In this document: piece after piece, positions 7,702 to 34,125 of the stretch
How the letters are laid out: the number at the start of each line of letters is the position of its first letter
How positions within the stretch are numbered: the first letter of the stretch is position 1
Assembly (NCBI GenBank): GCA_005239935.1
Contig: SBAZ01000013.1
Location: forward strand, 1-45,247
Direction: 5' to 3'
DNA from: Planctomycetales bacterium
Lineage (GTDB): Bacteria; Omnitrophota; Gorgyraeia; Aquiviventales; Aquiviventaceae
DNA length: 45,247 bases
Notes under the pieces: model-generated
Database searches by the model: none
The model's input: the letters and a program-made list of their open reading frames with translations, nothing else
Told to the model about the DNA's origin: nothing
Made by a program: the position numbers and the translations under genes

Positions 7702-8838
7702 TCAGACCGTAGCCTCCAGCCGCTGCACCGCCACGACCCAGGTGCGCATGGCGTGCGCGATCCGGCCGAAGTACGCCTTCACGTCCTGTGGCATGGTGGA
7801 CTTAGGCCAATCCTGGGCCTCCAGCCGGTCCGCCATTTCCAGGTACACATCTTCGTAGGTCGTGCCCCGGAGGGTCCAGCCGTCGATCGCCTGCCAGAGG
7901 GGGTCCGTCAGCTGGATGGACCAGAACTCGAGCTCGAGATCGCGCAGCAGCACGTGGAAGTTGCGCTGATGCAGGCAGGCCGGCAGACCGAACACCAGGC
8001 GGTCTCCCACGGCGTCGAGCGCCTTGCGAAGGAAGAAGCCGGACCAGATGTCGCCGTACCGCTCGACGACGAGCCCCCCGAGTTTCGCGGCGATGGGCAC
8101 GAAATACAGCGCCGGCAGCACGTCGCGGTGGAAGGCGGTGTTCTGGGTGTTGATGGGTGCCCAGGTGCCGGGTGCGAGCATCAGCCGCTCCTCGCGGACC
8201 TTGACCGTCTGCACCGGCTCGGCCAGCCGCGTGATCGAGTCCACATCCGGCTCCCCCAGCCACAGGCCAGCGTTGATCGCGACGCGGCCCTCGGTCATCC
8301 CGGTCTCGAGCCGCTCGTCCTTGGCCCAGCGCTTCGCGTACGGGAACCCGCGCGCGTACACGCGCCGCGCCGGCGCGGTCTCCATCATGTCGCAGGGATT
8401 GAACCACCCGGTGGAGCTGCGCACGGTCTTCAGGGTTAGGCGGGAGCCGACGATCGCATGCGCCGCATACCAGTCTTCTTGACCGACGAAATTGTCGTCG
8501 TCCACCGCCGCGAGGATCTCCGCGCCCTCTTCGGCGGCCATTAGGTAGCCGATGTTGCGCCGGTTGTCCGAATTGTAGGGAATCAGCGGCTTCAGATCCG
8601 GAAACCGGTCGAGGTAGCGCTCCTGGTCCGGCACGTCCACGTAGCGCGCCGCGAACCCCTGCGCCGTCACGCGGGCGGCCAGCTCCCGCACCGCGTCATG
8701 GGGCGTCTTGCGGTCGCCGATGATGATGGCGTTGACGCGGTCCAGGTGTCCGTACTTCGCGAAATTCTCGCGGTAGCCCTCCAGCAGGGACGGGACATTG
8801 ATGGTCGTCATCACGATTGTCAGGCGTGGAGCCGTCAT
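7702..8838 (-). CDS. GT75 / reversibly-glycosylated-polypeptide (RGP, UDP-arabinopyranose mutase) family protein
   Basis: Motifs match my recollection of plant RGP/UAM: AVDDDNFV (plant TIDDDCFV), YARGFPY (FVRGYPF), NAGLWLGEPDVDSITRL (SHGLWLNIPDYDAPTQL), RYGDIWSGFF (RYDDMWAGWC). 378 aa. ATGA overlap with the upstream stop at 8835-8838. Confidence 0.65.
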   Translation of the reverse strand: MTAPRLTIVMTTINVPSLLEGYRENFAKYGHLDRVNAIIIGDRKTPHDAVRELAARVTAQGFAARYVDVPDQERYLDRFPDLKPLIPYNSDNRRNIGYLMAAEEGAEILAAVDDDNFVGQEDWYAAHAIVGSRLTLKTVRSSTGWFNPCDMMETAPARRVYARGFPYAKRWAKDERLETGMTEGRVAINAGLWLGEPDVDSITRLAEPVQTVKVREERLMLAPGTWAPINTQNTAFHRDVLPALYFVPIAAKLGGLVVERYGDIWSGFFLRKALDAVGDRLVFGLPACLHQRNFHVLLRDLELEFWSIQLTDPLWQAIDGWTLRGTTYEDVYLEMADRLEAQDWPKSTMPQDVKAYFGRIAHAMRTWVVAVQRLEATV

Positions 8839-12078: not shown

Positions 12079-12812
12079 GGGCCAGACGCTCCGGTCAGCC
12101 GCTGCACATGCGCCCCGGCCTGCGCGTACGCCTCAGGGACGCCGATGTCGAGTAGCGCCTCTGCCCCGGTCCACGCGGCCAGCCCGCGCCCGACCCATGC
12201 CGGGAACACCTCTCGCTCGAGGGACACCGGCCGGCCGGCGCCGATGGAGGCCAGGAACGCCTGGCTCAGCAGATACACCCCGGCGCTGACCCATCCGGGG
12301 CCGCCGGCGGCCGATTTCTCCACGAATCTCCGCACCATGCCGTTCTCGGCCAGGTCCACCGCCCCGTAGCGGGTCGTGTCCGACTGCCGCGCCAGCGCCA
12401 GCGTGGCCGCCGCGCCGCTCGCGCGATGCCAGGCCAGGAAGGCGCGTAGATCCAGCCGGCACAGCGAATCGCCGTTGAGCGCCAGCACCGGCTCGCTCGT
12501 GAGCAGCGGCCGCGCCAGGCGCAGCGCTCCCGCCGTGCCGAGCGGCGAGAGCTCCTGTGAATACCGCAGGTTCACCGTGCCGTATTTGACGCCCAAGGCC
12601 TGGGTGATCATCGCGCCGCGATCGCCGGTGCACAGCACCGCCTCGGCCACGCCACCGTGCTGCAGCTGTTCGAGAATGTAGGACACCGCTGGCCGGCCGG
12701 CCACCGGCGCCAGCGCCTTCGGCCGGTCCGGGACCGCCGGACGCAGCCGCCGTCCCTGTCCGCCGACCAGCACGGCGGCCACGAGTCCCTCCGGCCCGTC
12801 GGCGGCGGTCAC
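12075..12812 (-). CDS. hddC: Sugar-1-phosphate nucleotidyltransferase, HddC-like (heptose-1-phosphate guanylyltransferase type)
   Basis: The N-terminus AAVLVGGQGRRLRPAVPDRPKALAPVAGRP matches the G-x-G-x-R-L nucleotidyltransferase signature. The gene sits between the hddA-like kinase and gmhB. GTGA overlap at 12809-12812. Confidence 0.65.
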   Translation of the reverse strand: MTAADGPEGLVAAVLVGGQGRRLRPAVPDRPKALAPVAGRPAVSYILEQLQHGGVAEAVLCTGDRGAMITQALGVKYGTVNLRYSQELSPLGTAGALRLARPLLTSEPVLALNGDSLCRLDLRAFLAWHRASGAAATLALARQSDTTRYGAVDLAENGMVRRFVEKSAAGGPGWVSAGVYLLSQAFLASIGAGRPVSLEREVFPAWVGRGLAAWTGAEALLDIGVPEAYAQAGAHVQRLTGASGP

Positions 12813-13825
12813 GGCGTGGTGCTCCGCCAGGTCTGCAGCCCGTGGTCGTCAAACGCGACGTCGGTGAACCGGCCGCCGTGGCGTTCCAGCTCCTGCCGCA
12901 ACGTGTGCTGCCGGTCGGTTTCGCAGAAGAGCAGCAGGTACCCGCCCCCGCCCGCGCCGAGCAGCTTGCCACCGGTGGCGCCGCGGTGCATGGCGAGCTG
13001 GTACAGCTCCTCCGCCTTGGTGCCCTCGGCGACGTGCGGGTTCATGCGCTTCTTGTTCTCATACGCCGCGCTCAGCAGCTCGCCGAAGCGGCGCAGCCGC
13101 CCCTTCAGCAGCGCCTCCTTCGCCTCATAGGCCAGCTGATGCAGCGCCTGCAACCCGGCAATCGTCTCGGCGCGGCCCTCCTTGTAATAGCGCGCCTGCT
13201 TCTGGACCAGCCCCAGGTCCGGCCGCACTTGGCCCAAGTAGCACACCAGGAGGTGCGCCTCGAGGTCGTTCAGAATCCCCTGGGGGATGCGCAGGGGGTT
13301 TACCAGCACCCGGTCCTTGTGGAACTCGATGAGGTTGAACCCGCCGAAGGTCGTCGCATACTGGTCCTGCTTGCCCCCGGCGATGCCCAAGTCCACGCGC
13401 TCGATCACGAAATTAAGCTCCGCCAGCTCGTACGGATCCAGGACGGTGTTCGTGTACTCCGCGAGCGCGCCGATCATGGCGGAGGTCACCGCCGAGGAGC
13501 CACCCAACCCGCTGCCGGGGGGCGCGTCGCAGCGGACATCCAGGTTGAACCCGACCTCGACCCCCATGCGCCGGACCACCGCCTTGGCCAGCTCCAGCAC
13601 ACCATCGCGGGGGGGATCCTCATCGACCGCGTAGGAAACCTCAACGTTGAGATCCAGCGAGCGCATTCGCACGCCGGCGTCGTCACGCGGGTAGAGGCTG
13701 ACGTACGCGTACCGGTTGATCGTGCTCGAGAGCACCGCCCCCCCCTGCTCCTCGTAATAGTGCGGCAGATCCGTCCCGCCCCCGGCAAAGCTGATGCGCA
13801 GCGGTGATTTCGCGCGGATGATCAT
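12809..13825 (-). CDS. hddA: GHMP-family sugar kinase, HddA-like (D-glycero-alpha-D-manno-heptose 7-phosphate kinase type)
   Basis: MIIRAKSPLRISFAGGGTDLPHYY, and the GHMP motif PPGSGLGGSSAVTSA. ATG at 13825 was chosen. An alternative upstream ATG at 13891 would overlap the preceding gene. Confidence 0.7.
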   Translation of the reverse strand: MIIRAKSPLRISFAGGGTDLPHYYEEQGGAVLSSTINRYAYVSLYPRDDAGVRMRSLDLNVEVSYAVDEDPPRDGVLELAKAVVRRMGVEVGFNLDVRCDAPPGSGLGGSSAVTSAMIGALAEYTNTVLDPYELAELNFVIERVDLGIAGGKQDQYATTFGGFNLIEFHKDRVLVNPLRIPQGILNDLEAHLLVCYLGQVRPDLGLVQKQARYYKEGRAETIAGLQALHQLAYEAKEALLKGRLRRFGELLSAAYENKKRMNPHVAEGTKAEELYQLAMHRGATGGKLLGAGGGGYLLLFCETDRQHTLRQELERHGGRFTDVAFDDHGLQTWRSTTP

Positions 13826-17374: not shown

Positions 17375-19192
17375 TTAGTGCGCGCCGTGCCGGACAACCG
17401 CCACCAGGCGCCGCCCGCCTGCCACCGGCCACCGTTCAACCGTGCCGAATCCCGTCAAGAACTCCTCGCCGGCGCGGCCCACTTCAGACTCCGCCGTCAC
17501 GACGACATCCACCGGCCGCGTCCCTGGCGCGTAGATCGCCTGCCAGTCCAGCCGCATGTACCCCTCATCCGGATAGAGTGCCGCGATCTCCTTGGTGAAC
17601 CGGTAGCCGGTATAGAAACTTCCGGTCGCCAGCGCAGCCGACGGTTGCCGGACTGCCCCGTTGATCTGATACGCCACCACCGGCGAGCGTCCCATCCGGT
17701 GCGCCAGGACGCCGAGCCGGCGGTCGATCACCTGCTTTTCCGCCCATCCCTCGGCCACGAGCCGGTGATGTGCCTTCACATCCCGGACCGCCGCCCCGGC
17801 CAGCAACGCCAGCACTGCCACCGCGCCCGCGGCCGCGCTGCGGCGGATCCAGCCGGGCGGGCTGACCCAGGCCCGGGTCAGCCAGGCCAGCCCGGCGGCT
17901 GTCCCGACCGCGACCGGTGTCAGAAACCGCACCGCAGCGCCGCTGGCCGCATAGGAGACACCGTCCACCGCGTGATTCCTCAGCCCAGCCACCAACCCGA
18001 ACGTCAGACTCAGCAGCGCGATCACCCCGAGCCCGACCTCACCAGGATCCGGCCCGCGCGCTCTGAGCACCCAGGCCAGCCGGGCCGCGACCAGCCCGGT
18101 AATGAGCAGAACGGCCGCGGTCCAGCCTGGCACATCCCGGATCAGCTGGGCCAGCTCGGCAGCGATGACGCCGGCGCCCAACCGCGCCTCCGGTTGCCAG
18201 AACGCGCCGACGGTGGCATCCACCACATGGTGCAGCATTTCCCCGTATCGGTGGGCGGCGATGAACGTGGAAAGCAGCCAGCCTGCGGCCGCGCCCCCTG
18301 CCGCCTCAAGCGCAAACCGGAACATACCTTCCAGCCGCCGCCACGGCGCGGACCCCGGCCCACACAGGTGGCTCGCCAGACCCAACGCCCAGGCCAGCAG
18401 CAGCACCGGCTGGCCGATGTGGAGCACCGCCGCCAGCCGCGGCGAACTGCGCCAGAAATCTGTTGCCGCGATCAGGAGCGCAACCCCCACGACACCGGCC
18501 AGCCAGGCCGCCAGTATCGGCCAGGTGAGACGGCACCGCGCCGGCTGCCGCGCGGCCCACAGCCACCCCATGGCCGCGCAGCCGGCCAGCACTGCTGCCG
18601 CGACCGGCAGATAGACGATCTTGACGGCGCACGCCAGGCCGGCCCAGGCCCCGGCGGCGAAGAGCTGCCGGGTCTGCGGCGGCTGTCCCGGGCGACAGGC
18701 GTCGAGCAGGCTCGCCCAAAGCAGCAACCCGACTGCCACCAGGAACATCTCAGAACTCCAGTAGGTGGCGTACATCAGCGATGACGCATGGAGAAACGGC
18801 ACGCCAAGGATCGCGGCCCGCAGCAGCCACGGCAGTTGGGTGGGCAGCGCCGCGGCGAAACGCCACAGGGCCGCGACGGTGGCTGCGAGCCCGATCGCGT
18901 ACGCCACGGCAAGAAAACGCGCCAGCGCGTCGAGACGCGTGCCCAACAACCGCGTCAGTGCGGCGCCGAGCACATACACCGGAGTTCCCGGGTGGTACGC
19001 CAGCTCCGGGGGCTGCCCGCGCGCCACCTGGAAGCTGTTGAACGCGAAATCCATCTCCACATCAGTGGACATGATCCAGTACGGCCGCGGTATCACCAGC
19101 ACTTTGTAGGCCCAGACCGATGCCAGCAGCAGGGCGATCACCGCGAACGCCGAAACCCGTGGCCGCATGGCGTGCGCGGAGGCCCCGGTCAT
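17375..19192 (-). CDS. Polytopic membrane protein, probable GT-C-fold (GT39/GT83, PMT_2/ArnT-like) glycosyltransferase
   Basis: More than 10 hydrophobic segments. The first loop, STDVEMDFAFNSFQVARGQPPELAYHPGTPVYVLGA, resembles the acidic loop plus HPPL motif of ArnT/PMT_2 enzymes. About 130 aa at the C-terminus look soluble. ATGA overlap with the upstream stop at 19189-19192. Confidence 0.5.
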   Translation of the reverse strand: MTGASAHAMRPRVSAFAVIALLLASVWAYKVLVIPRPYWIMSTDVEMDFAFNSFQVARGQPPELAYHPGTPVYVLGAALTRLLGTRLDALARFLAVAYAIGLAATVAALWRFAAALPTQLPWLLRAAILGVPFLHASSLMYATYWSSEMFLVAVGLLLWASLLDACRPGQPPQTRQLFAAGAWAGLACAVKIVYLPVAAAVLAGCAAMGWLWAARQPARCRLTWPILAAWLAGVVGVALLIAATDFWRSSPRLAAVLHIGQPVLLLAWALGLASHLCGPGSAPWRRLEGMFRFALEAAGGAAAGWLLSTFIAAHRYGEMLHHVVDATVGAFWQPEARLGAGVIAAELAQLIRDVPGWTAAVLLITGLVAARLAWVLRARGPDPGEVGLGVIALLSLTFGLVAGLRNHAVDGVSYAASGAAVRFLTPVAVGTAAGLAWLTRAWVSPPGWIRRSAAAGAVAVLALLAGAAVRDVKAHHRLVAEGWAEKQVIDRRLGVLAHRMGRSPVVAYQINGAVRQPSAALATGSFYTGYRFTKEIAALYPDEGYMRLDWQAIYAPGTRPVDVVVTAESEVGRAGEEFLTGFGTVERWPVAGGRRLVAVVRHGAH

Positions 19193-21110: not shown

Positions 21111-21992
21111 TCACCGCCCTCCGGAGCCGAGAATGTCGGCGAATACCCGCTCGCGCCGCCGGAAATACCAGGCGCCGCCGAGGAACAGCACCCCGGAGGC
21201 CCCGGCCGAGACCGCGAGCACTGGGCCCGGGGCGGTGCCGACACCGAAGAGCGCCCACCGGAAACCCTCCACGACGCCAACCATCGGGTTGAGTGCGTAG
21301 AGCGGCCGCCATGCCAGAGGCACCATACTGCTCGGATAGACGACTGGCGTGACGAACAACCACAGCTGGGTCAGAAACGGCAGCACGTACCGGACATCAC
21401 GGTACTCGAGGTTCAGCGCCGACAGCCAGAAGCCCAGGCCGAGCGACGTCATCAGCATCAGGAGGACGAACGACGGCAACCAGACAATGCCGAGGGTGGG
21501 CGCCAGGCCGTAGTACACCATGAGGCCCACGAGCAGGATCGAGGCGATGGCAAAATCCACCAGTGCGGCGAGCACCGTGGAAAGCGGCACGAGCAGCCGC
21601 GGAAAATAGACGCGGGTGATCAGGCGTTGGTCCGCCAGCAGGCTGCCGGCTGATTCGGACAGCGCCCGGGAGAAGATCTGCCACGGTAACAGGCCAGCGT
21701 ATGCGAACACGGGATACGGGATCCCCTCGGACGGCAACTGCGCCAACTGGCCGAAAAAGAGCGTGAACACGAGCATCATGGACAGCGGCTGCGCCACGGC
21801 CCAGGCGATGCCGATGGCTGTCTGCTTATAGCGCACCTTCAAGTCCCGCCAGACGAGGAAATAGGCGAGTTCGCGGTACCGCCACAGGTCCCGCAGTCCC
21901 AGGCTGAAGCCCCGGGTTGCACGGATGTCGATCACCTCTGGCGGCAGCCTGGGAGCCCATGCGTTGGCCTCGGACATCGTGGCTGTTGTCAT
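21111..21992 (-). CDS. wzm: ABC-2 type polysaccharide exporter permease (Wzm/KpsM/TagG-like)
   Basis: [35 protein letters not shown] is the ABC-2 signature region, followed by six hydrophobic segments. ATG at 21992 forms an ATGA overlap with the uxs stop. Confidence 0.85.
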
Positions 21993-22939
21993 GACTTCGC
22001 GAGTGCCTGCGCGTGCTGGCGAAACCATCCGATGGTCGCCGCCAGGCCCTCCCGAACCGGCACGCGCGGCCGCCACCCCGTTAACCGGGTAATCGTGGCC
22101 AGGTCCGGCCGGCGCTGCTTCGGGTCATCCGTCGGCAGGGGGCGGAATTCGATCCGGCTGCCAGCGCCGTTGACGAGCTCCAACACCAATTTGGCCAGTT
22201 CCAAAATGGTCCATTCCTCAGGATTCCCCACGTTCACCGGGTCGGGATGTGCCACGTCCATAAGCCCGCGGATTCCCTCCACTAGGTCATCGACATAGCA
22301 GAGGCTGCGTGTCTGCCCGCCGTCGCCGTACACGGTCAGGGCCTCGCCGCGCAGGGCCTGGCTGATGAAGTTCGGGATGGCGCGGCCATCGTTCAGGCGC
22401 ATCCGCGGCCCGTAGGTGTTGAAAATGCGGACGATGCGGGTATCGATCCCGTGTTCCCGGTGGTAGGCCATCGTCAGCGCCTCCGCGAACCGCTTGGTCT
22501 CGTCATAGACGCCGCGCGGCCCCACGGGGTTGACCCGGCCCCAGTACGTCTCCGGCTGGGGATGGACTTCCGGGTCCCCATAGACCTCCGACGTCGAGGC
22601 CAGCATGAACCTGGCTCCCTTCGCCTTGGCCATGCCCAGCATATTCAGCGTGCCGAGGGAGCCGACCTTCAGCGTCGGAATGGGATACTTGAGGTAGTCC
22701 GGGGGGCTGGCTGGTGAAGCAAAATGGAGGATATAGTCCACGGGTGCCGGCAGGTCAAGCGGCTTGCTGATGTCGTGCTGGAGGAAGCGGAACCGGCGCC
22801 CGGCGCGCAAGTGGGCCACGTTGCTCTGCGTGCCGGTGATGAAGTTGTCCACGCACACGATGTCGTGGTCGTCGCGCAGCAACCGCTCGCAGAGATGCGA
22901 CCCGATGAACCCTGCCCCGCCGGTGATGAGGACCTGCAT
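21989..22939 (-). CDS. uxs: UDP-glucuronate decarboxylase (UDP-xylose synthase)
   Basis: [88 protein letters not shown]. All are UXS hallmark blocks. Confidence 0.9.
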
Positions 22940-26708: not shown

Positions 26709-29516
26709 TTACAGCGGTACGACGCGACGCGCGCGCCGTCCCTGGGCTCCAAAATGGTTCCGGGTGTCCACAATGACGCGGGCGTGGCGCAGGACCTGGT
26801 CGTAGTCCACGTGTGTGTGGTTGGTCAGCAGGACCACGCAGTCGGCCCCGCGCAGCTGGGCAGGGGTCAGCGGGACCGACCGCTGCACCTGGCCGTTCAG
26901 CTCGGCGGTCGGCACGTGCGGGTCATGGTAGCGGACGACCGCGCCGCGCTCGGCGAGGTGCTTCACGACGTCGAAGGCTGGGGAGTCGCGCGTATCGCTG
27001 ACGTCCTTCTTATAGGCCAGTCCAAGCAGGAGCACGACGGCCCCCTTCAGCGCCCGGCGACGCTCGTTGAGGATGCGGCCCACGCGCTCCGCGACGACTT
27101 CGGGCATGCCGCCGTTAATCTGTGTGGCGAGCTCAATGAAGCGCGCCTCATAGCCGTGCACCCGCACCTTCCACGCCAGATACATGGGGTCCGATGGAAT
27201 GCAGTTGTGCACAATAATGCCATAACTCGTGACGAACGTATGGGTCGTGTCCACTTCGGCGGAATACACCATGCGGCGTCCCCGCTCCGTACGACGCTCC
27301 CGCAACGGCACCCCGACGTAGCCGTCGTACCTGCGGAACGAGCGGTTCGGCATGCGCTTGACATGCCCGTTCAGATACCCCAAGAGCCTCCGACGCTTGT
27401 GCCCATCAAGCCATCCGGCGCATCGGCGTACCTGTGTCTCGCCCGTGATGTAGAGGAGGTTCGGCCGGCGCTTGAAGCTCGGCACAATGCCCGATCCCTG
27501 TAATAGCAGAACCACTTGCTGAAAGAGCCGAGGATTCACGGTGTAGTAGTTCACCACGCCACGGTTGACGCGCGTGCGATACCATCGTCCGCGCTTCATG
27601 GCCACGCGCCAGCCGTGCGCCGTCTCCACCCCGCCGTCACCGCGCAGGAGTCCAGCCAGGACCGCCTCACGGTGCCTGACGCTCAACCCGAACACCACGT
27701 CAGGAATCCGCATCGAATAGGAGTCGATGCCACAGCGCAAGGCATCCCGAAGCAGGATGCCGAAAGGCACGCACGACACCTTCACATGGGAGGTCCGCCA
27801 CTGCCGATCGTCGAAGGTGCTCCAACGAAACCCTAGACCATTCAGAATCCGTTTGACGTCCTCCAGGTATTCGCGCTCCGCTCGATTGAATGAGAACCGG
27901 ACACGCAGGGATTCGTCCTCCGTGATGCACCCCTCGCTCAGGTAGTAGCCGAGGAGGCGGCACACGTCTTCGGTCAGATCGATGACCGCCGGGCAGGCGG
28001 TCCAAGATGGTCCTTTGCCGGACGTCAGTCGCACCTCACGGTGATCGACCGCGGGAAATCCCGGCTGCCGACGGGCCTCAAGGTAGGCAGCCAGTGGAAT
28101 CGCGTTGCGCCGATAATACTCCCAGGGGTCTCGGCGGTACCGCTTCAGCACCGGCCGCAGCCATGGACGGAATCGCTTCCAGGACCACCCGTTCGGCATA
28201 ATCCGGATCCGTTCACGATATGCCGGGTGGCCCGCGAAATGCTCAATCAGATCCACCGCGTGCTGCGGGACCCCCTGGGGTAGCGAGTCCATCACGACCA
28301 ATTCATCGCTCGCCAGGACGTCCTGCGCAAACTTGACACCCAATCGCCCATTCTGGATGACCATGGGGTGCCGGTTCGTGACGCGCAATTCGCGGCCGTC
28401 CCCGGCGCGCAAGTGCACCATCGGGCCGTCATAGGGCCTGGAGACAAGCCACTGCAAGGGCCGAAAGATGCTTTTGCGGCGTTTCAGGTCAAACGACAGT
28501 GTCTGAAGCCCCCGCGGCCGGATGAACGTCATGCCCTGGCGCCGGTGGACACGTTCGGGCTGCTCCATTGCCAGCTGATGAAACGCCTCTTTGAAACTGG
28601 TCACCTCCACGGTCTCCCCGCGTTTCAGCACAAGAATCTCGCGTCCATCCAGGCAATGCCCACCGATGCCAGGGCCGGGATAAAACGGCATAAACCCGAA
28701 CGGCTTCGTGCGCGCCCCTTCGATGACCTCCCAGACGTTGATGCCGAGGCGGTCACAGATGAGGGCGATCTCGTTGACCAAGCCGATATTCACGGCCCGG
28801 AAGGTGTTCTCGAGGATCTTGACCATCTCCGCGGTCTTCGCCGAAGACACCGGCACCGTCTTATGGATGACCGAGCCGTAGAGGGCGGCCGCCAACTGCG
28901 TGCACGCCGGCGTGGCCCCACCGACCACCTTCGGAATGGTCCGCGTCGTGTAGGTGGCGTTGCCCGGATCGATGCGCTCCGGCGAGAAGGCGAGTGCAAT
29001 GTCCCGGCCGACCTTCAGTCTACGCGCCTCGAGCGCGGGCTGCACGACTTCTTCGGTCGTGCCGGGGTACGTGGTGCTCTCAAGGACGATCAGCTGCCCG
29101 CGGCGCGCCCGGCGCGCAATCTCCTGTGTGGCCGAGAGGATGTAGGACATGTCCGGCTCGCGCGTCTTCCGCAGGGGGGTGGGGACACAGATGATGATGG
29201 CGTCCTGGGTCGCCAGGCCCGCGAAGGAGGTGCTCGCGCTCAAGCGGCGCCCCTTGCGCGCCGCGGCCAGGTCCTCGCTCGAGACATCCTCGATGTACGA
29301 GCGCGCGCTCAGCACGCCGCGCACGCGCCGCTTGTCCGGGTCGAACCCCGTCACCCGGAAGCCTTCCTTGGCGAACTCGACCGCCAACGGCAGACCGACG
29401 TACCCAAGGCCCAAGACCCCGACGCGCGCGGTCCGGCGCTCGATGCGCCGCGCCAGACGGGCCAGCGGCGGCGAGAGGGTTTTCCGTACCGCCTTCTTCG
29501 AGCGTCGGCTCGGCAT
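26709..29516 (-). CDS. UDP-N-acetyl-hexosamine 6-dehydrogenase family (TviB/WbpO/WecC-like), intein-containing precursor
   Basis: VGVLGLGYVGLPLAVEFAKEGF (NAD fold), IIICVPTP, LESTTYPGTTE, then PGPGIGGH|intein|CIPSDPMYLAWK, and a C-terminal LGLAYKKDVSDTRDSPA. ATG at 29516 lies 5 nt after the rfbB stop. 935 aa, of which 451 aa are extein. Confidence 0.85.
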   Translation of the reverse strand: MPSRRSKKAVRKTLSPPLARLARRIERRTARVGVLGLGYVGLPLAVEFAKEGFRVTGFDPDKRRVRGVLSARSYIEDVSSEDLAAARKGRRLSASTSFAGLATQDAIIICVPTPLRKTREPDMSYILSATQEIARRARRGQLIVLESTTYPGTTEEVVQPALEARRLKVGRDIALAFSPERIDPGNATYTTRTIPKVVGGATPACTQLAAALYGSVIHKTVPVSSAKTAEMVKILENTFRAVNIGLVNEIALICDRLGINVWEVIEGARTKPFGFMPFYPGPGIGGHCLDGREILVLKRGETVEVTSFKEAFHQLAMEQPERVHRRQGMTFIRPRGLQTLSFDLKRRKSIFRPLQWLVSRPYDGPMVHLRAGDGRELRVTNRHPMVIQNGRLGVKFAQDVLASDELVVMDSLPQGVPQHAVDLIEHFAGHPAYRERIRIMPNGWSWKRFRPWLRPVLKRYRRDPWEYYRRNAIPLAAYLEARRQPGFPAVDHREVRLTSGKGPSWTACPAVIDLTEDVCRLLGYYLSEGCITEDESLRVRFSFNRAEREYLEDVKRILNGLGFRWSTFDDRQWRTSHVKVSCVPFGILLRDALRCGIDSYSMRIPDVVFGLSVRHREAVLAGLLRGDGGVETAHGWRVAMKRGRWYRTRVNRGVVNYYTVNPRLFQQVVLLLQGSGIVPSFKRRPNLLYITGETQVRRCAGWLDGHKRRRLLGYLNGHVKRMPNRSFRRYDGYVGVPLRERRTERGRRMVYSAEVDTTHTFVTSYGIIVHNCIPSDPMYLAWKVRVHGYEARFIELATQINGGMPEVVAERVGRILNERRRALKGAVVLLLGLAYKKDVSDTRDSPAFDVVKHLAERGAVVRYHDPHVPTAELNGQVQRSVPLTPAQLRGADCVVLLTNHTHVDYDQVLRHARVIVDTRNHFGAQGRRARRVVPL
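27204..28655 (-). mobile_element. Intein A (484 aa) with a LAGLIDADG homing-endonuclease domain
   Basis: It starts with Cys (CLDGREILV), has block B TxxH (VTNRHP), carries LAGLIDADG motifs LLGYYLSEGC and VLAGLLRGDGG, and ends IIVHN followed by the +1 Cys. Codon arithmetic was checked against the sequence at both junctions. Confidence 0.85.
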
Positions 29517-29521
29517 CGGCC

Positions 29522-30556
29522 TCAGTCTGCCCGCGCCGTGTCTGTTCGCGCCGCGCGGGGCTCCGCGGAATCGAGCCAGTGGTACGACTCCTCGCGCAGC
29601 CCCGCCACAAGCGGCAGCCACCAGTCGGCGTGGTGTCGATACCAGGTGACGGTCCGCGCGAGTCCCTCACGGAACTCTGTCGCCGGCGCCCAGCCAAGTG
29701 CACGCAGCTTCGAATCCTCCACTCCATAGCGCCAGTCATGCCCCGGCCGGTCCGGTACGTGCTGGAGCAACCCGGACCCGCAGCCGACAAGTTGCAGCAC
29801 CGCGGTCGCTGTCTGCAGATTGGCCGCCTCGTGACCGCTCCCGATATTGTAGATCTCACCGGGTTCGCCGCACGACACCAATACCTCGAGCGCCCGGCAG
29901 AGATCCTCCACGAAGAGCCAGCTGCGGCGCTGCGAGCCATCGCCGTAGAGTGGAATGGGCTGCTGTTCGAGCGCCCGCGTGATGCACAGGGGAATGAATT
30001 TCTCCGGGAACTGGCCGGGCCCATACGCATTGGTCGGCCGCGCGACCACGACCGGCACGCCATAGCTGTGATGGTACGCGAGGACGAATCCGTCGGCTGC
30101 GGCCTTGCTCGCGGCGTACGGACTGCGCGGCGCCAGCCGTGCGGTCTCATTCACCTCACCGGACAGCATCGGCCCGTAGACCTCATCAGTACTCACATGC
30201 AGAATGCGCTCGACCCCCGCCCGCCGCGCCTCCTCCAGCAGGACCCTGGTACCCTCTACATTGGTGCGCACGAACGGGGCTGCGTTCGTGATGGAGCGGT
30301 CCACGTGGGTTTCTGCCGCGCAGTGCACGACGACCTGACAACCAGCCACCGCCATGGCAACCTGCCGTGGGTCTGTCACGTCTCCGCGCACCAGCCGGTA
30401 GCCCGTCAGCCTCGCCACATCCTCCACACGCGCGGTGGACGCCGCATACGTCAATACGTCGAGGTTGACGATCTCGTCCCCGGGATGTGTTGCCCGCCAC
30501 CGGCGGATAACATGCGAGCCGATGAAGCCGCACCCACCGGTCACCAGGATGCGCAT
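29522..30556 (-). CDS. rfbB: dTDP-glucose 4,6-dehydratase
   Basis: MRILVTGGCGFIGSHVIR, VVHCAAETHVDRSI, HVSTDEVYG, SPYAASKAAAD, YGPGQFPEKFIPL, LYGDGSQRRSWLFVED. The start shares 1 nt with the rfbA stop (TGATG at 30554-30558). Confidence 0.9.
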   Translation of the reverse strand: MRILVTGGCGFIGSHVIRRWRATHPGDEIVNLDVLTYAASTARVEDVARLTGYRLVRGDVTDPRQVAMAVAGCQVVVHCAAETHVDRSITNAAPFVRTNVEGTRVLLEEARRAGVERILHVSTDEVYGPMLSGEVNETARLAPRSPYAASKAAADGFVLAYHHSYGVPVVVARPTNAYGPGQFPEKFIPLCITRALEQQPIPLYGDGSQRRSWLFVEDLCRALEVLVSCGEPGEIYNIGSGHEAANLQTATAVLQLVGCGSGLLQHVPDRPGHDWRYGVEDSKLRALGWAPATEFREGLARTVTWYRHHADWWLPLVAGLREESYHWLDSAEPRAARTDTARAD

Positions 30557-31320
30557 CACTGCACCTGGGCCGGCTCGGCGCCAATGGCATCGCCGCGACC
30601 CGCCCTCGTCTTCTGCCGAACCAGCGCCGTGGCCCGGAAGAGGCTCTCCGGATGCCCGGCGTCCGTCCACCAGCCCTCGAGGACGTCGTGGTGCATCCGC
30701 CCGCGGTCGATGTAGAGGTTGTTCACATCGGTGATCTCCATCTCCCCCCGCGTCGACGGCCGCAGCGCCCGGATCATGTCGAATACCTCGGTGTCATACA
30801 TGTAGACGCCCGCAACGGCGTACGGTGACGGCGGATCTTTGGGTTTCTCGTGGATGCGAATCACGCGCTCCTCCTTCAACTCCGCCACCCCAAACCGCCA
30901 CGGGTCTTCGACCTCCTTCAACAGCACCCGAGCCCCTTCGCGCTGAGCGGCAAACCGTTCCACATACGCGCCGATGCTGCGCTCCAGGATGTTGTCTCCT
31001 AGGATGACGATGATCCGTTCCCCGCCCGCGAAGTGCTCCGCGAGGCTCAGCGCATCTGCAATGCCTCCCTCCCCCCGCTGGTAGGTATAGTCCAAATGCT
31101 TGAGGCCGAAGTCCTCTCCATTGCCAAGCAGGCGAAGAAAATCGCCCGCATTGTTGCCGCCGGTCACAAGCAGAATCTCGCGAATGCCCGCGTCGACCAG
31201 CGTTTGGATGGGATAGTACACCATCGGCCGGTCATAGACCGGCAAGAGATGCTTGTTGGTGATCCGCGTCAGTGCACCGAGCCGCGTCCCCAACCCGCCA
31301 GCCAAGACGACACCCTTCAT
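30556..31320 (-). CDS. rfbA: Glucose-1-phosphate thymidylyltransferase-type sugar nucleotidyltransferase (short form)
   Basis: MKGVVLAGGLGTRLGALTRITNKHLLPVYDRPMVYYPI, ILGDNI. ATGA overlap with the ugd stop (31317-31320). It lies immediately upstream of rfbB. Confidence 0.8.
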   Translation of the reverse strand: MKGVVLAGGLGTRLGALTRITNKHLLPVYDRPMVYYPIQTLVDAGIREILLVTGGNNAGDFLRLLGNGEDFGLKHLDYTYQRGEGGIADALSLAEHFAGGERIIVILGDNILERSIGAYVERFAAQREGARVLLKEVEDPWRFGVAELKEERVIRIHEKPKDPPSPYAVAGVYMYDTEVFDMIRALRPSTRGEMEITDVNNLYIDRGRMHHDVLEGWWTDAGHPESLFRATALVRQKTRAGRGDAIGAEPAQVQ

Positions 31321-34055
31321 GATCCCGAGCGCTCCGTCCCGCGTCCAACTCCGACGTAGGTGAACCCGAGCTTACGCATCTGCTCCGGCTCGTAGATGTT
31401 GCGTCCGTCGAGGAGCAGCGGCCGGCGCAGCAGTTTCTTGATGCGCCCGAAGTCGAGCTCCTTGAACTCGTTCCACTCCGTGACAACGGCCAGGCAGTCC
31501 GCGCCCCGCGCCGCCTCATACGGGTCCTTGCACATGGTCACCTTCGGCAGCAGATGGGCCGCTTCCTTCATGGCCTGCGGGTCGAAGGCCTTGACGGTCG
31601 CGCCCTCGTCCTGCAGCGCTTCGATGATGTCGATGGCGGGTGCATAGCGCATGTCATCCGTGTTGGGCTTGAACGCCAGCCCCAGGACCCCCACCGTCTT
31701 GCCCTTCAAGTTCCAGAGCGCGCGCTTGAGCTTGGCCACGAAACTCCGCTTGGCTTCCTCGTTGATCTTGCGCACCGCCTTGAGGAGCTCGAAGTCGTAG
31801 CCCAGCGTCTCCGCGATCTTGATAAAGGCGTCCACGTCCTTCGGAAAGCAGTTGTGGACAACCAAGCCGGTTCCGGCTACTAAGAGTTGATTGTCCGTCT
31901 CTACACTGTAGACGTACGTGCGGTCCTCGTAGGCCTTCACACGCCGGACCGGCAAGAGCACGTATCCCGGCCGGCGCCGGAATCCGCGCTGCCTGATCCG
32001 GCGCTGATACCGCCCCAAGGCCTGGTCAATCCGCCGGCGCTTCGCTGGCCCAAATACGTCTCGCAGCGATCGGAGCTGCTCAAGACCGCTGACACGCAGA
32101 ATATACGCGGGCCGAGTGGACTGGTTCATCCATCGCTCGTGCAGCGAGGGGACGATCCCCAGCGACTGCAGCAGCAGCACCACGCCTTCGGCCAACGCCT
32201 TGCTGGTCGTCGCGTACTCAAACACCACGTTCCGCCCACCCTGGAGCGCGGTGATGGAACCATCCCCGCTAAAGAGCCCCTGCAGCAAGGCCCGTCGCAG
32301 TCGAGGGGGGACGTTAAACGCGATGGTCGGCAGTCGCTTATCATGGGAGCTCGTCCCGCACTGCAGCACATCCCGCACCAGCCACGCCAAGAGTCTGCTC
32401 GACACGACAGTCGAGACGGCACCAGGAAACCAGACGACGTCGAACCGGATGCCGTAGCGATGCAGCATGGCATGGAGATCCCTCACATAGCCGCGCTCGT
32501 GTCGCCCGAACGAGATCCCAAGGCGCTCGCGAACCCCTCGCGCCCCTGATTCAGCCGAAATCCAGCCCTCCGCGAGGTAGTAGCCCAGCCAGCGCAGGAG
32601 CCTGGCATCCACCGGAAAGACTGCGGGAATCGTTGTCGCCTTGCCTCGTGCCGTGAAGAGCCGGATGCGCGACGGCTCGACCTGCAGTCCGCGAGCCTCC
32701 TGCAGATGTCGGTACACGCCCCACGCCATGACGCCATGGCGCGCGACGTCATACGGAGACTTAGCAAGCGTGCGGGGAATCGCCCCCAGCCAGCGGCTAG
32801 GAATACGCTCAAACGCTCCATCGGTCGCACGCAACCGCACCGAGAGTGCGGTACCACGCCGCTCGAGGGTTTCTAAGACATTGATCGTCCGTGCGGGCTC
32901 CAGCGTTGGAAGCCTTGTCGGGCTCACCAAGAGGTCGCCCTCGCGCACATCTCGTGCCTCGCGGATCTCAAGCGCCGTGGACCTCTCGTGCGCCACCATG
33001 ATCGGGTGATTGGCCGTCACGCGGACACGGCGCCCCATCATGGTTTCGAGTTCGACAAAGGGCCCCTCATACCATCGGCGCGTCAGACATCGAATGCCTG
33101 TCAGCGTGGCCCGGCGGCGTGTCTGGTCGAACGACAGCATCCGTCCACCTGCTGGCACCGCCACGTCAACCTCTTCCACGCGGCCGGCAACCGGATGCCG
33201 AGCGAAGATGTCCTGGAAGCGCTGCACGCTCACATGGGGACTGTTGAGCATGTACGTCGATTCCGTCCCCTCAAAACAAAACCCGCCGTAGCCGACGCCT
33301 GCATTGAGGAACGAGCGGCCGATGCGCGGATCCAGCCCCATGCCGTGGGCCACCTGCTGGATGTCGGCGCCGGAGCGCTCGCACACCTGGGCCACCGCAT
33401 TGATGAACGAAATCTTCATGGAGAGGAAGGAGTTCGACGCGTGCTTGATGAGTTCGGCGCTGGCGATATCGGTGACGACGATCGGGCAGCCGAAGGGCTT
33501 GTAGAGCTCGGTGAGCAGCTGTTTCGCCTTGGCGCTCTCCACCCCGAGGACCACGCGGTCCGGCTTCATCGTGTCCTGGATGGCCGTTCCCTCGCGAAGG
33601 AACTCGGGGTTCGAGGCGACGTCGAAGGGCACCTTGCGCTTGCGGTAGGTCTTGATGGTGTGGTACACCCAGGCCCCGGTCTGGACCGGCACGGTGGACT
33701 TTTCCACGATGAGGCGGTAGCTCGTCATGTGCTCCGCGATGCCGCGCGCCACCGCCTCGACATACGTGAGATCGGCCTCGCCGGTGTCCCGCTGGGGTGT
33801 GCCCACGGCGATGAAGAGGATGAGGGACTTCGCGACCGCCTCTTTCACCGATGCGGTGAACGTGAGCCGCTGCTCCTTCACGTTCCGGTGCACGAGTTCC
33901 TCAAGCCCCGGCTCGTAGTAGGGCATGAGGCCGCGTTTGAGGTTGGCGATGCGCTTCGCATCGTTGTCGAGCATGGTGACTCGGTTGCCCAGGTCGGCGA
34001 AGACCGCCCCGCTGACCAGGCCGACATGCCCGGCCCCAACGACACAGAGATTCAT
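31317..34055 (-). CDS. ugd: UDP-glucose 6-dehydrogenase, intein-containing precursor
   Basis: MNLCVVGAGHVGLVSGAVFADLG, LFIAVGTP, NPEFLREGTAIQD, GVGYGGF|intein|CFPKDVDAFIK, LGLAFKPNTDDMRYAP. ATG at 34055 is preceded by AGAGGA. 912 aa, of which 436 aa are extein. Confidence 0.9.
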   Translation of the reverse strand: MNLCVVGAGHVGLVSGAVFADLGNRVTMLDNDAKRIANLKRGLMPYYEPGLEELVHRNVKEQRLTFTASVKEAVAKSLILFIAVGTPQRDTGEADLTYVEAVARGIAEHMTSYRLIVEKSTVPVQTGAWVYHTIKTYRKRKVPFDVASNPEFLREGTAIQDTMKPDRVVLGVESAKAKQLLTELYKPFGCPIVVTDIASAELIKHASNSFLSMKISFINAVAQVCERSGADIQQVAHGMGLDPRIGRSFLNAGVGYGGFCFEGTESTYMLNSPHVSVQRFQDIFARHPVAGRVEEVDVAVPAGGRMLSFDQTRRRATLTGIRCLTRRWYEGPFVELETMMGRRVRVTANHPIMVAHERSTALEIREARDVREGDLLVSPTRLPTLEPARTINVLETLERRGTALSVRLRATDGAFERIPSRWLGAIPRTLAKSPYDVARHGVMAWGVYRHLQEARGLQVEPSRIRLFTARGKATTIPAVFPVDARLLRWLGYYLAEGWISAESGARGVRERLGISFGRHERGYVRDLHAMLHRYGIRFDVVWFPGAVSTVVSSRLLAWLVRDVLQCGTSSHDKRLPTIAFNVPPRLRRALLQGLFSGDGSITALQGGRNVVFEYATTSKALAEGVVLLLQSLGIVPSLHERWMNQSTRPAYILRVSGLEQLRSLRDVFGPAKRRRIDQALGRYQRRIRQRGFRRRPGYVLLPVRRVKAYEDRTYVYSVETDNQLLVAGTGLVVHNCFPKDVDAFIKIAETLGYDFELLKAVRKINEEAKRSFVAKLKRALWNLKGKTVGVLGLAFKPNTDDMRYAPAIDIIEALQDEGATVKAFDPQAMKEAAHLLPKVTMCKDPYEAARGADCLAVVTEWNEFKELDFGRIKKLLRRPLLLDGRNIYEPEQMRKLGFTYVGVGRGTERSGS
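31851..33278 (-). mobile_element. Intein B (476 aa) with a LAGLIDADG homing-endonuclease domain
   Basis: It starts with Cys (CFEGTESTY), has block B TxxH (VTANHP), carries LAGLIDADG motifs WLGYYLAEGW and LLQGLFSGDGS, and ends LVVHN followed by the +1 Cys of CFPKD. Both junction codons were verified in the sequence (tgt at 33278..33276; aac at 31853..31851). Confidence 0.85.
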
Positions 34056-34116
34056 GGTTCCATCCTCTTTGGAGGACGACACTTACGCGAAGCGCGTGCG
34101 TGGCACGAAGGCGCTA

Positions 34117-34125
34117 ATTATACCA
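34117..34125 (-). promoter_or_regulatory. Extended -10 promoter candidate (TGgTATAAT) upstream of ugd
   Basis: The minus strand reads ctggTATAATtagc (plus-strand attata at 34117-34122, cca at 34123-34125). It sits in the 107-nt gap between the lptD-like stop and the ugd ATG. No good -35 is present. Confidence 0.45.

What the first reader, a model, noticed from the sequence alone, without database searches (positions are those of the whole stretch)
31851..33278. Intein B: 476-aa LAGLIDADG intein splitting UDP-glucose 6-dehydrogenase
The junctions read GVGYGGF|CFEGTESTY ... GTGLVVHN|CFPKDVDAFIK. Excision restores GGFCFPKD, the catalytic-Cys motif of Ugd, and leaves a 436-aa enzyme of normal length. 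Cys1, TxxH (VTANHP), the terminal HN and the +1 Cys are present. The LAGLIDADG motifs WLGYYLAEG and LQGLFSGDG retain their acidic residues. Ugd feeds Uxs, whose gene lies about 9 kb downstream in the direction of transcription, so the whole UDP-GlcA/UDP-Xyl branch depends on splicing.
Basis: seen in the sequence. Interest (0 to 1): 0.7.

Follow-up and report, generated by a model that had tools for sequence, protein, structure and literature searches.

The report
Homing-endonuclease intein splitting UDP-glucose dehydrogenase
The UDP-glucose dehydrogenase gene of this bacterium is interrupted just before its catalytic cysteine by a full-length self-splicing intein carrying a LAGLIDADG homing endonuclease. 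It is a real but ordinary new member of the already described 'udp' intein allele.

Summary
Window 31851..33278 (- strand) encodes a 476-aa in-frame insert in a 912-aa Ugd precursor (31317..34055). The junctions are GGF|C...HN|CFPKD, and removing the insert leaves a 436-aa enzyme.

The insert is an intein with a homing endonuclease:
- It passes the Pfam gathering thresholds for Intein_splicing and LAGLIDADG_3.
- Its AlphaFold model matches PI-PkoII, TliVMA, PI-PfuI and PI-SceI.
- All splicing nucleophiles and both endonuclease acidic residues are present, and they are conserved in 36 relatives.

The spliced product aligns without a gap to Sphingomonas UgdH (E 1e-130).

Two syntenic Candidatus Omnitrophota genomes settle the native-domain rival. 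One carries the same intein (59% identical). The other has an uninterrupted Ugd that is 78% identical.

The allele is not new. Haloarchaeal Ugd inteins, the published 'udp' allele, sit at the same site. A scan of species genomes found 411 related loci, most of the best ones in Ugd.

The one unusual feature lies outside the given coordinates. A paralogous sugar dehydrogenase 2.2 kb downstream carries a second, distantly related intein at the homologous site. This pairing was not seen in the other 80 loci.

Splicing, endonuclease activity and the pathway's dependence on splicing are inferred, not shown.

The parts
31317..34055 (-). ugd precursor gene: 912 codons plus stop. An alternative upstream GTG lies at 34082.
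   Evidence: Unbroken ORF. Pfam UDPG_MGDP_dh N, central and C domains are split around the insert. GAGGA lies 7 nt upstream of the ATG.
33279..34055 (-). N-extein, 259 aa, ending GVGYGGF
   Evidence: It is 80% identical to the L001 Ugd and 78% identical to the L071 Ugd.
31851..33278 (-). Intein B, 476 aa: a Hint splicing domain with an inserted LAGLIDADG endonuclease
   Evidence: Pfam Intein_splicing 39.5 bits and LAGLIDADG_3 E 5e-21. AlphaFold model with pLDDT 83. Foldseek hit to PI-PkoII at E 2.5e-27, TM 0.70.
33276..33278 (-). Cys1, the block A nucleophile
   Evidence: Cys in 36 of 36 related inteins.
33006..33017 (-). Block B motif T-A-N-H (T88, H91)
   Evidence: T in 34/36 and H in 36/36.
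32049..32609 (-). LAGLIDADG homing endonuclease domain (approximate limits, intein aa 224-410)
   Evidence: Two LAGLIDADG_3 stretches. Alignment to the PI-PkoII endonuclease domain. I-DmoI fold matches.
32565..32588 (-). First LAGLIDADG motif, LGYYLAEG (catalytic E237)
   Evidence: E in 36/36.
32259..32285 (-). Second LAGLIDADG motif, LQGLFSGDG (catalytic D339)
   Evidence: D in 36/36.
31851..31856 (-). Block G: penultimate His475 and terminal Asn476
   Evidence: H in 35/36 and N in 35/36.
31848..31850 (-). Cys+1: the first C-extein residue and also the catalytic cysteine of Ugd (GGxCFPKD)
   Evidence: It aligns with GYGGSCFPKD of UgdH 4a7p.
31320..31850 (-). C-extein, 177 aa. The stop codon is at 31317..31319 and overlaps the ATG of the next gene (ATGA).
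27204..28655 (-). Intein A, 484 aa. It sits at the homologous site (GGH|C...HN|CIPSD) of the paralogous nucleotide-sugar dehydrogenase ORF 26709..29621.
   Evidence: 30% identical to intein B over the full length (E 5e-55), while the exteins are 29% identical.
21989..22939 (-). uxs, UDP-glucuronate decarboxylase, the consumer of the Ugd product
   Evidence: E 3e-114 to human UXS1 (4gll/2b69), far above all other SDR enzymes.

Best explanation
This is a bifunctional class-1 intein, the 'udp' allele.

Proposed mechanism:
1. The ugd gene is translated as a 912-aa precursor. The 476-aa intein sits between Phe259 and the catalytic Cys of the enzyme.
2. Cys1 makes a thioester by N-S acyl shift, helped by the block B residues Thr88 and His91.
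3. The N-extein is passed to Cys+1.
4. Asn476 cyclises, helped by His475, and releases the intein.
5. An S-N shift leaves a normal peptide bond. The result is a 436-aa Ugd with the motif GGFCFPKD restored.

The precursor is expected to be catalytically dead, because the central domain is split at the active-site cysteine.

The released intein carries a two-motif LAGLIDADG endonuclease. That endonuclease is expected to cut intein-less ugd alleles at the sequence encoding GGx|CFPKD, so that repair copies the intein in (homing).

What is shown: the anatomy, the family membership, the fold, residue conservation, and empty-site alleles in close relatives.
What is inferred: splicing activity, endonuclease activity, its target, and inactivity of the precursor.
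For: Identity of the insert:
- Exact in-frame insert with canonical junctions.
- Curated profile hits above threshold.
- NCBIfam matches only to the intein portions of intein-containing proteins.
- PI-PkoII is the best solved relative by sequence and by fold. All the top fold hits are intein endonucleases.
- C1, H91, E237 and D339 are invariant in 36 family members. T88, H475 and N476 are nearly so.

Identity of the host:
- The spliced product matches TuaD as a single stretch (3-431 against 4-433 of 439) and NDP-sugDHase likewise.
- It matches UgdH 4a7p at E 1e-130 with no gap at the junction.

Evidence from relatives:
- Two Candidatus Omnitrophota MAGs share the gene order LptD-Ugd-RmlA-RmlB-DH-Epim-DegT...Uxs.
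- L001 has the intein (59% identical). L071 has an uninterrupted Ugd that is 78% identical. L070 also has an empty site.
- The same site is occupied in 54 of the best 80 genome loci.
- It is occupied in at least 21 of the 149 best-scoring clusters (50% identity) from the exhaustive protein search.
- It is occupied in Halorubrum and Natronomonas.

Composition: intein GC3 is 0.75 against 0.88-0.90 for the exteins. This fits an element under different codon constraint or of foreign origin.
Against: - No experiment exists. Splicing and cleavage are predicted from residues only.
- The position equivalent to block F:4, which from memory is usually Asp, is Ser here. Ser is also found there in 26 of 36 relatives, so it looks like a family trait rather than decay.
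- The intein is more diverged from L001's (59%) than the exteins are (about 78%). The data do not show recent mobility in this lineage, and the endonuclease could be inactive despite its intact motifs.
- The exact protein is not in the public collection searched, so there is no independent copy of this very sequence.
Confidence: 0.9

Rival explanations
1. Domesticated regulatory intein. Splicing is conditional, for example blocked by a Cys1-Cys+1 disulfide or by another environmental cue. The cell would use it, together with intein A in the paralogous dehydrogenase, as a post-translational switch on sugar-nucleotide supply for the polysaccharide cluster.
For: - Both nucleophiles are cysteines, and Cys+1 is the enzyme's catalytic residue.
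- Two inteins sit at homologous catalytic sites in one apparent operon.
- This pairing was not found in the other 80 loci.
- Redox-conditional splicing is known for some Cys1/Cys+1 inteins (from memory, not tested here).
Against: - Close relatives manage with either site empty (L071, L070, L047). That is the pattern of a selfish element, not a required regulator.
- The endonuclease motifs are fully kept. A purely regulatory intein has no need of them.
- No sequence feature specific to regulation was found.
Confidence: 0.06
2. Decayed intein. The insert no longer splices, and the ugd gene is in effect inactivated.
For: - Ser instead of Asp at the block F:4-equivalent position.
- 41% divergence from the nearest relative's intein.
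Against: - The 912-codon frame is intact.
- Every nucleophile and assisting residue is present and conserved family-wide.
- Ser at that position is the majority state in the family.
- The gene is translationally coupled to rmlA by an ATGA overlap, and its product is needed by the downstream uxs.
- Truly degraded relatives look different. P0014 is 349 aa and has lost the first LAGLIDADG motif.
Confidence: 0.03
3. A native lineage-specific insertion domain of Ugd, or an assembly chimera, rather than a mobile element.
For: None was found beyond the fact that the window comes from a single assembly.
Against: - Orthologues that are 78% identical lack the insert precisely at the junction.
- An independent assembly (L001) has the same architecture.
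- The profiles and the fold are those of inteins.
Confidence: 0.01

Closest known systems
The 'udp' intein allele of UDP-glucose 6-dehydrogenase. It is listed as a halobacterial allele with relatives in Methanocaldococcus jannaschii and other methanococci, Thermococcus, Dictyoglomus and a Fervidibacteria bacterium (Soucy et al. 2014, PMC4071816). UDP-glucose dehydrogenase is also named as an intein host in the 2010 review PMC2874743, citing InBase.
   Same: - The host enzyme is the same.
- The insertion point is the same, checked here on Halorubrum distributum and Natronomonas gomsonensis proteins: GGS|C...HN|CFPKD.
- The architecture is the same: Cys1, HN, Cys+1 and a LAGLIDADG endonuclease.
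- The sizes are similar.
   Different: - The host is a bacterium, probably Candidatus Omnitrophota by synteny. This is an inference.
- An archaeal Ugd intein at the same site (L049, Woesearchaeota) is only about 30% identical to intein B. The haloarchaeal inteins were compared with L049 (33-35%), not directly with intein B.
- The -1 residue is Phe instead of Ser.
- The sites of the Methanocaldococcus jannaschii and Dictyoglomus examples were not checked here.
PI-PkoII, the second intein of Thermococcus kodakarensis DNA polymerase (PDB 2cw7)
   Same: It is the best solved relative by sequence (E 2e-15) and by fold (E 2.5e-27, TMq 0.70). It has the same Hint plus LAGLIDADG layout, with aligned motifs LGYYVSEG / LGYYLAEG and FIGDG / FSGDG.
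   Different: The host protein and insertion site differ. Identity is about 20%. PI-PkoII is 537 aa, so it carries extra segments.
Intein A of the same window (27204..28655) and its lineage in UDP-ManNAc-dehydrogenase-like paralogues
   Same: It occupies the homologous position, immediately before the catalytic Cys of a UDPG_MGDP_dh family enzyme. It belongs to the same intein family: 30% identical over the full length, E 5e-55.
   Different: The intein clade is different. Inteins cluster by host gene in the NJ tree, so A and B are not recent copies of each other. The DNA around the two sites matches at only 29 of 60 positions.
PurL inteins of cyanobacteria, Nitrospira and Fervidibacter (loci L054-L080)
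   Same: They belong to the same intein family (26-33% identity), and all key residues are shared.
   Different: The host is unrelated: the site is YGN|C...HN|CVGVPT in phosphoribosylformylglycinamidine synthase. The host name is recognised from the motif, from memory, and was not profile-tested.

Membership tests
Intein (Hint-fold protein-splicing element, class 1) | An in-frame insert whose removal restores a contiguous, normal-length host protein | tested here: met
   The 436-aa product gives a single-stretch match to TuaD and NDP-sugDHase. Its alignment to 4a7p has no gap at the junction.
Intein (Hint-fold protein-splicing element, class 1) | A Cys/Ser at position 1, a block B TxxH, a C-terminal HN, and a Cys/Ser/Thr at +1 | tested here: met
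   C1, T88-A-N-H91, H475-N476 and C+1 were verified by translation. They are conserved in 34-36 of 36 relatives.
Intein (Hint-fold protein-splicing element, class 1) | A profile match to the intein splicing domain above the curated threshold | tested here: met
   PF14890 scores 39.5 bits against a cutoff of 35.8. The short TIGR01445 and TIGR01443 models match only below or near their cutoffs.
Intein (Hint-fold protein-splicing element, class 1) | A Hint fold | tested here: met
   The AlphaFold model (pLDDT 83, pTM 0.84) matches PI-PkoII, TliVMA, PI-PfuI, PI-SceI and mini-inteins.
Intein (Hint-fold protein-splicing element, class 1) | Intein-less alleles of the same host gene exist | tested here: met
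   L071 (78% identical Ugd, syntenic) and L070 have an uninterrupted site.
Intein (Hint-fold protein-splicing element, class 1) | Autocatalytic protein splicing actually occurs | not testable with these tools
   This needs expression of the ORF and detection of the ligated exteins.
LAGLIDADG homing endonuclease (two-motif, monomeric, intein-borne PI-type) | Two LAGLIDADG motifs, each with its catalytic acidic residue | tested here: met
   LGYYLAEG (E237) and LQGLFSGDG (D339). PF14528 scores E 5e-21 in two stretches. E and D are each present in 36/36 relatives.
LAGLIDADG homing endonuclease (two-motif, monomeric, intein-borne PI-type) | The alpha-beta-beta-alpha-beta-beta-alpha endonuclease fold | tested here: met
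   I-DmoI and I-OnuI structures match the central domain with TMt 0.67-0.78.
LAGLIDADG homing endonuclease (two-motif, monomeric, intein-borne PI-type) | Site-specific cleavage of the intein-less allele | not testable with these tools
   The candidate target is the joined extein DNA or the L071 empty site. It needs a cleavage assay.
'udp' intein allele (intein at the catalytic-Cys site of UDP-glucose 6-dehydrogenase) | The host is a UDP-glucose 6-dehydrogenase | tested here: inconclusive
   The best matches are Ugd proteins: TuaD at 577 bits and UgdH 4a7p at E 1e-130. The TuaD equivalog cutoff of 700 is not reached. The subfamily model NDP-sugDHase is passed (458 vs 190).
'udp' intein allele (intein at the catalytic-Cys site of UDP-glucose 6-dehydrogenase) | The same insertion position as the published allele | tested here: met
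   Halorubrum distributum and Natronomonas proteins show GGS|C...HN|CFPKD. The halobacterial 'udp' allele is listed in PMC4071816. The M. jannaschii sequence itself was not examined.

The most novel reading that the evidence does not exclude
The two inteins, B in Ugd and A in the neighbouring UDP-ManNAc-dehydrogenase-like paralogue, both sit directly on the catalytic cysteines of enzymes of one operon. Together they could act as a coordinated, condition-sensitive switch (for example redox-sensitive). Such a switch would gate the supply of oxidised sugar nucleotides (UDP-GlcA, UDP-Xyl and an acidic amino sugar) for the cell-envelope polysaccharide encoded by this cluster.
Probability: 0.05. Interest if true: 0.7.

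Novelty: new member of a known kind. Interest (0 to 1): 0.3.

Why it matters
The practical value is for annotation. The gene should be annotated as an intein-containing ugd with a 436-aa mature product, not as a 912-aa fusion or a split gene.

For intein biology the finding adds a probable Omnitrophota host to a widespread allele. It also gives a compact natural comparison set. Syntenic relatives carry the intein in Ugd only, in the paralogue only, or (this window) in both. That set could be used to study homing, loss and site specificity at a catalytic-cysteine site.

It does not open a new kind of mechanism.

Tried and rejected
- Exact-sequence look-up of the 912-aa precursor found nothing, so the source record could not be identified.
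- Literature searches for 'intein' with 'nucleotide sugar dehydrogenase', 'UDP GD' or 'Omnitrophota' returned no papers.
- I considered that inteins A and B might be recent copies of each other, by a within-genome jump between paralogues. I rejected this for three reasons. They are only 30% identical. Each is closest to the intein at the same gene in a syntenic relative (59-60%). In an NJ tree the inteins group by host gene. The tree has no bootstrap, so deep branching is not resolved.
- I considered that the F at position -1 might be an intein-linked change. I rejected this because the intein-less L071 has Tyr there and L001 has Phe, so an aromatic residue is a trait of this Ugd lineage.
- The sigma-70 promoter scan found no two-hexamer promoter upstream of ugd. 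One terminator-like hit at the N junction lies within chance expectation.
- dN/dS between the window and L001 inteins was not attempted, because 59% amino-acid identity means synonymous sites are saturated.
Full report
**Observation.** The window has an unbroken ORF at 31317..34082 on the minus strand. The probable start is the ATG at 34055, which lies 7 nt after a GAGGA. This gives a 912-aa product. A 476-aa segment, CFEGTESTY...GTGLVVHN, maps exactly to 31851..33278. Its removal leaves 436 aa with GVGYGGF joined to CFPKDVDAFIK. The coordinates, lengths and junctions are therefore confirmed as written.

**What the insert is.**
- Pfam gives LAGLIDADG_3 at E 5e-21 in two stretches, and Intein_splicing at 39.5 bits against a gathering score of 35.8.
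- NCBIfam hits from the insert fall only on the intein portions of intein-containing proteins (Tes, PolII large subunit, DnaB, GyrA, RFC).
- The nearest solved structure by sequence is the intein endonuclease PI-PkoII, E 2e-15, with both the Hint part and the endonuclease part aligned.
- An AlphaFold model built on a six-sequence alignment has pLDDT 83 and pTM 0.84.
- Its best fold matches are PI-PkoII (E 2.5e-27, TM 0.70), the TliVMA and PhoVMA inteins, PI-PfuI and PI-SceI. I-DmoI-type endonucleases follow for the central domain, and mini-inteins for the splicing domain.
- In 36 inteins of this family from three host genes, C1, H91, E237 and D339 are invariant, and T88, H475 and N476 are nearly so.
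- The position equivalent to block F:4 is Ser here and in 26 of the 36, and Asp in the other 10. I read this as a family trait, not decay.

**What the host is.**
- The precursor matches the three UDPG_MGDP_dh domains, with the central domain cut at profile position 65 of 94.
- The in-silico spliced protein matches TuaD (577 bits, residues 3-431 against 4-433 of 439) and the nucleotide-sugar dehydrogenase subfamily model (458 bits, full length). Each match is a single stretch, where the precursor gives two.
- It aligns with Sphingomonas UgdH 4a7p at E 1e-130 with no gap at the junction, GYGGfCFPKD against GYGGSCFPKD.
- Cys+1 is therefore the catalytic cysteine of the enzyme.
- The TuaD equivalog cutoff (700) is not reached, so UDP-glucose specificity is the best-supported assignment rather than a curated call.

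**Relatives and empty sites.**
- A genome scan seeded with the motif R[LWI][CLV]G[YL]YL[AS]EG found 411 loci encoding a relative.
- Among the best 80, 54 sit in Ugd at this same site and 9 in the paralogue type. The other 17 sit in another host, recognisable as PurL from the flanks (YGN|C...HN|CVGVPT).
- The exhaustive protein search gave 2203 representative clusters at E <= 0.001. At least 21 of the top 149 are complete Ugd precursors with GGx|C...HN|C[FL]PKD.
- The closest locus, L001 (a Candidatus Omnitrophota MAG), shares the gene order LptD-like, Ugd, RmlA, RmlB, second dehydrogenase. Its Ugd exteins are 76-80% identical and its intein at the same site is 59% identical.
- A second Omnitrophota MAG, L071, shares the order through Epim, DegT and Uxs. 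Its Ugd is 78% identical but uninterrupted: GGY|CFPKD is contiguous at L071:5490/5491.
- L070 likewise has an uninterrupted Ugd next to an intein-bearing paralogue. L047 shows the reverse: Ugd is filled and the paralogue is empty.
- This presence/absence pattern among close, syntenic relatives rules out a native domain and is the signature of a mobile intein.
- Intein GC3 is 0.75 against 0.88-0.90 in the exteins. The same dip is seen in intein A.

**Mechanism.** The standard class-1 pathway fits every residue:
1. N-S shift at Cys1.
2. Transesterification to Cys+1.
3. Asn476 cyclisation assisted by His475.
4. S-N shift.

The precursor should be inactive, because the catalytic Cys is the +1 residue and the central domain is split. 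The endonuclease has both catalytic acidic residues. Its presumed target is the empty ugd site, for which the L071 sequence and the joined extein sequence of the window are candidates (44 of 60 nt identical). All activity statements are inferences.

**Pathway context.**
- The ORF at 21989..22939 is a UDP-glucuronate decarboxylase: E 3e-114 to human UXS1, against E 5e-38 or weaker for other SDR enzymes.
- The ugd stop overlaps the rmlA start (ATGA).
- The window is a large minus-strand polysaccharide cluster. It holds many SDR enzymes, an aminotransferase, glycosyltransferases and Wzm/Wzt-type ABC transporter parts.
- The claim that the whole branch depends on splicing cannot be established from 45 kb.

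**Comparison with what is known.**
- UDP-glucose dehydrogenase is a listed intein host in InBase-era reviews (PMC2874743).
- Soucy et al. 2014 define a single 'udp' allele. It occurs in 7 halobacteria, 6 other Euryarchaeota including M. jannaschii, and 2 bacteria (PMC4071816). An allele there means a distinct insertion position.
- I checked haloarchaeal members directly. The Halorubrum distributum and Natronomonas gomsonensis proteins read GGS|C...HN|CFPKD, the same site.
- The finding is therefore a new member of a known allele, in a bacterial lineage that is probably Omnitrophota.

**The second intein.** The least ordinary aspect lies outside the given coordinates.
- The paralogous dehydrogenase at 26709..29621 scores best against the UDP-ManNAc dehydrogenase models, below their cutoffs.
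- It carries a 484-aa intein at 27204..28655 at the homologous site, GGH|C...HN|CIPSD.
- A and B are 30% identical. Each is closest to the intein of the same gene in the syntenic MAGs. In an NJ tree, inteins cluster by host gene (no bootstrap). They are therefore independent residents, not recent copies of each other.
- None of the other 80 loci shows two inteins within its flanks. L001 cannot be judged, because its contig ends at the paralogue's junction.

**Verdict.** The finding is ordinary in kind, so interest is modest.

Noticed in passing
window 27204..28655 (-), within ORF 26709..29621: A second full-length LAGLIDADG intein ('intein A', 484 aa) sits at the homologous catalytic-Cys site (GGH|C...HN|CIPSD) of a paralogous nucleotide-sugar dehydrogenase, 2.2 kb downstream of the ugd stop codon. 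It is 30% identical to intein B. No other of the 80 related loci shows two inteins together.
   Followed up: partly
window 31851..33278 and 27204..28655: Both inteins have a clearly lower third-position GC than their exteins: 0.75 and 0.76 against 0.85-0.90. Overall GC is similar for B (0.64 vs 0.63-0.65) and lower for A (0.62 vs 0.68-0.69).
   Followed up: partly
L001:13732-14534: The Omnitrophota contig JACQHS010000085 ends within 2 nt of the point where the paralogue's intein would begin (...FYPGPGI, then the contig ends). This may be an assembly break caused by intein presence/absence variation in the sampled population.
   Followed up: no
window 7702..8838 (-): This ORF matches Pfam PF03214 (reversibly glycosylated polypeptide / UDP-arabinopyranose mutase family, E 4e-15). 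It lies in the same cluster as Ugd and Uxs, which hints at a plant-like UDP-Xyl to UDP-Ara(f) branch in this bacterium.
   Followed up: no
window 34117..34125 (-) and 31317..31320: TGGTATAAT, an extended -10-like sequence, lies in the 80-nt gap between the LptD-like gene and ugd. The two-hexamer scan did not call a promoter there. The ugd stop and the rmlA start overlap as ATGA, which suggests translational coupling.
   Followed up: partly
L054, L056-L058, L060, L063, L065, L067, L078, L080: Inteins of the same family (26-33% identical) sit at YGN|C...HN|CVGVPTVGGE in proteins of about 1200 aa (PurL-like by motif). The hosts are cyanobacteria, Nitrospira, Gaiellaceae and Candidatus Fervidibacter.
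   Followed up: partly
P0014 (790 aa, from a 4.8-Mb contig) and P0104: Some Ugd inteins at this site are shortened (349 and 308 aa). At least in P0014 the first LAGLIDADG motif is lost. These are examples of endonuclease decay within the same allele.
   Followed up: no
window 17375..19192 (-) and 12133..12972 (-): Two long ORFs inside the polysaccharide cluster (605 and 279 aa) have no Pfam match at E <= 1e-5. In this 68% GC sequence, long ORFs can also arise by chance.
   Followed up: no
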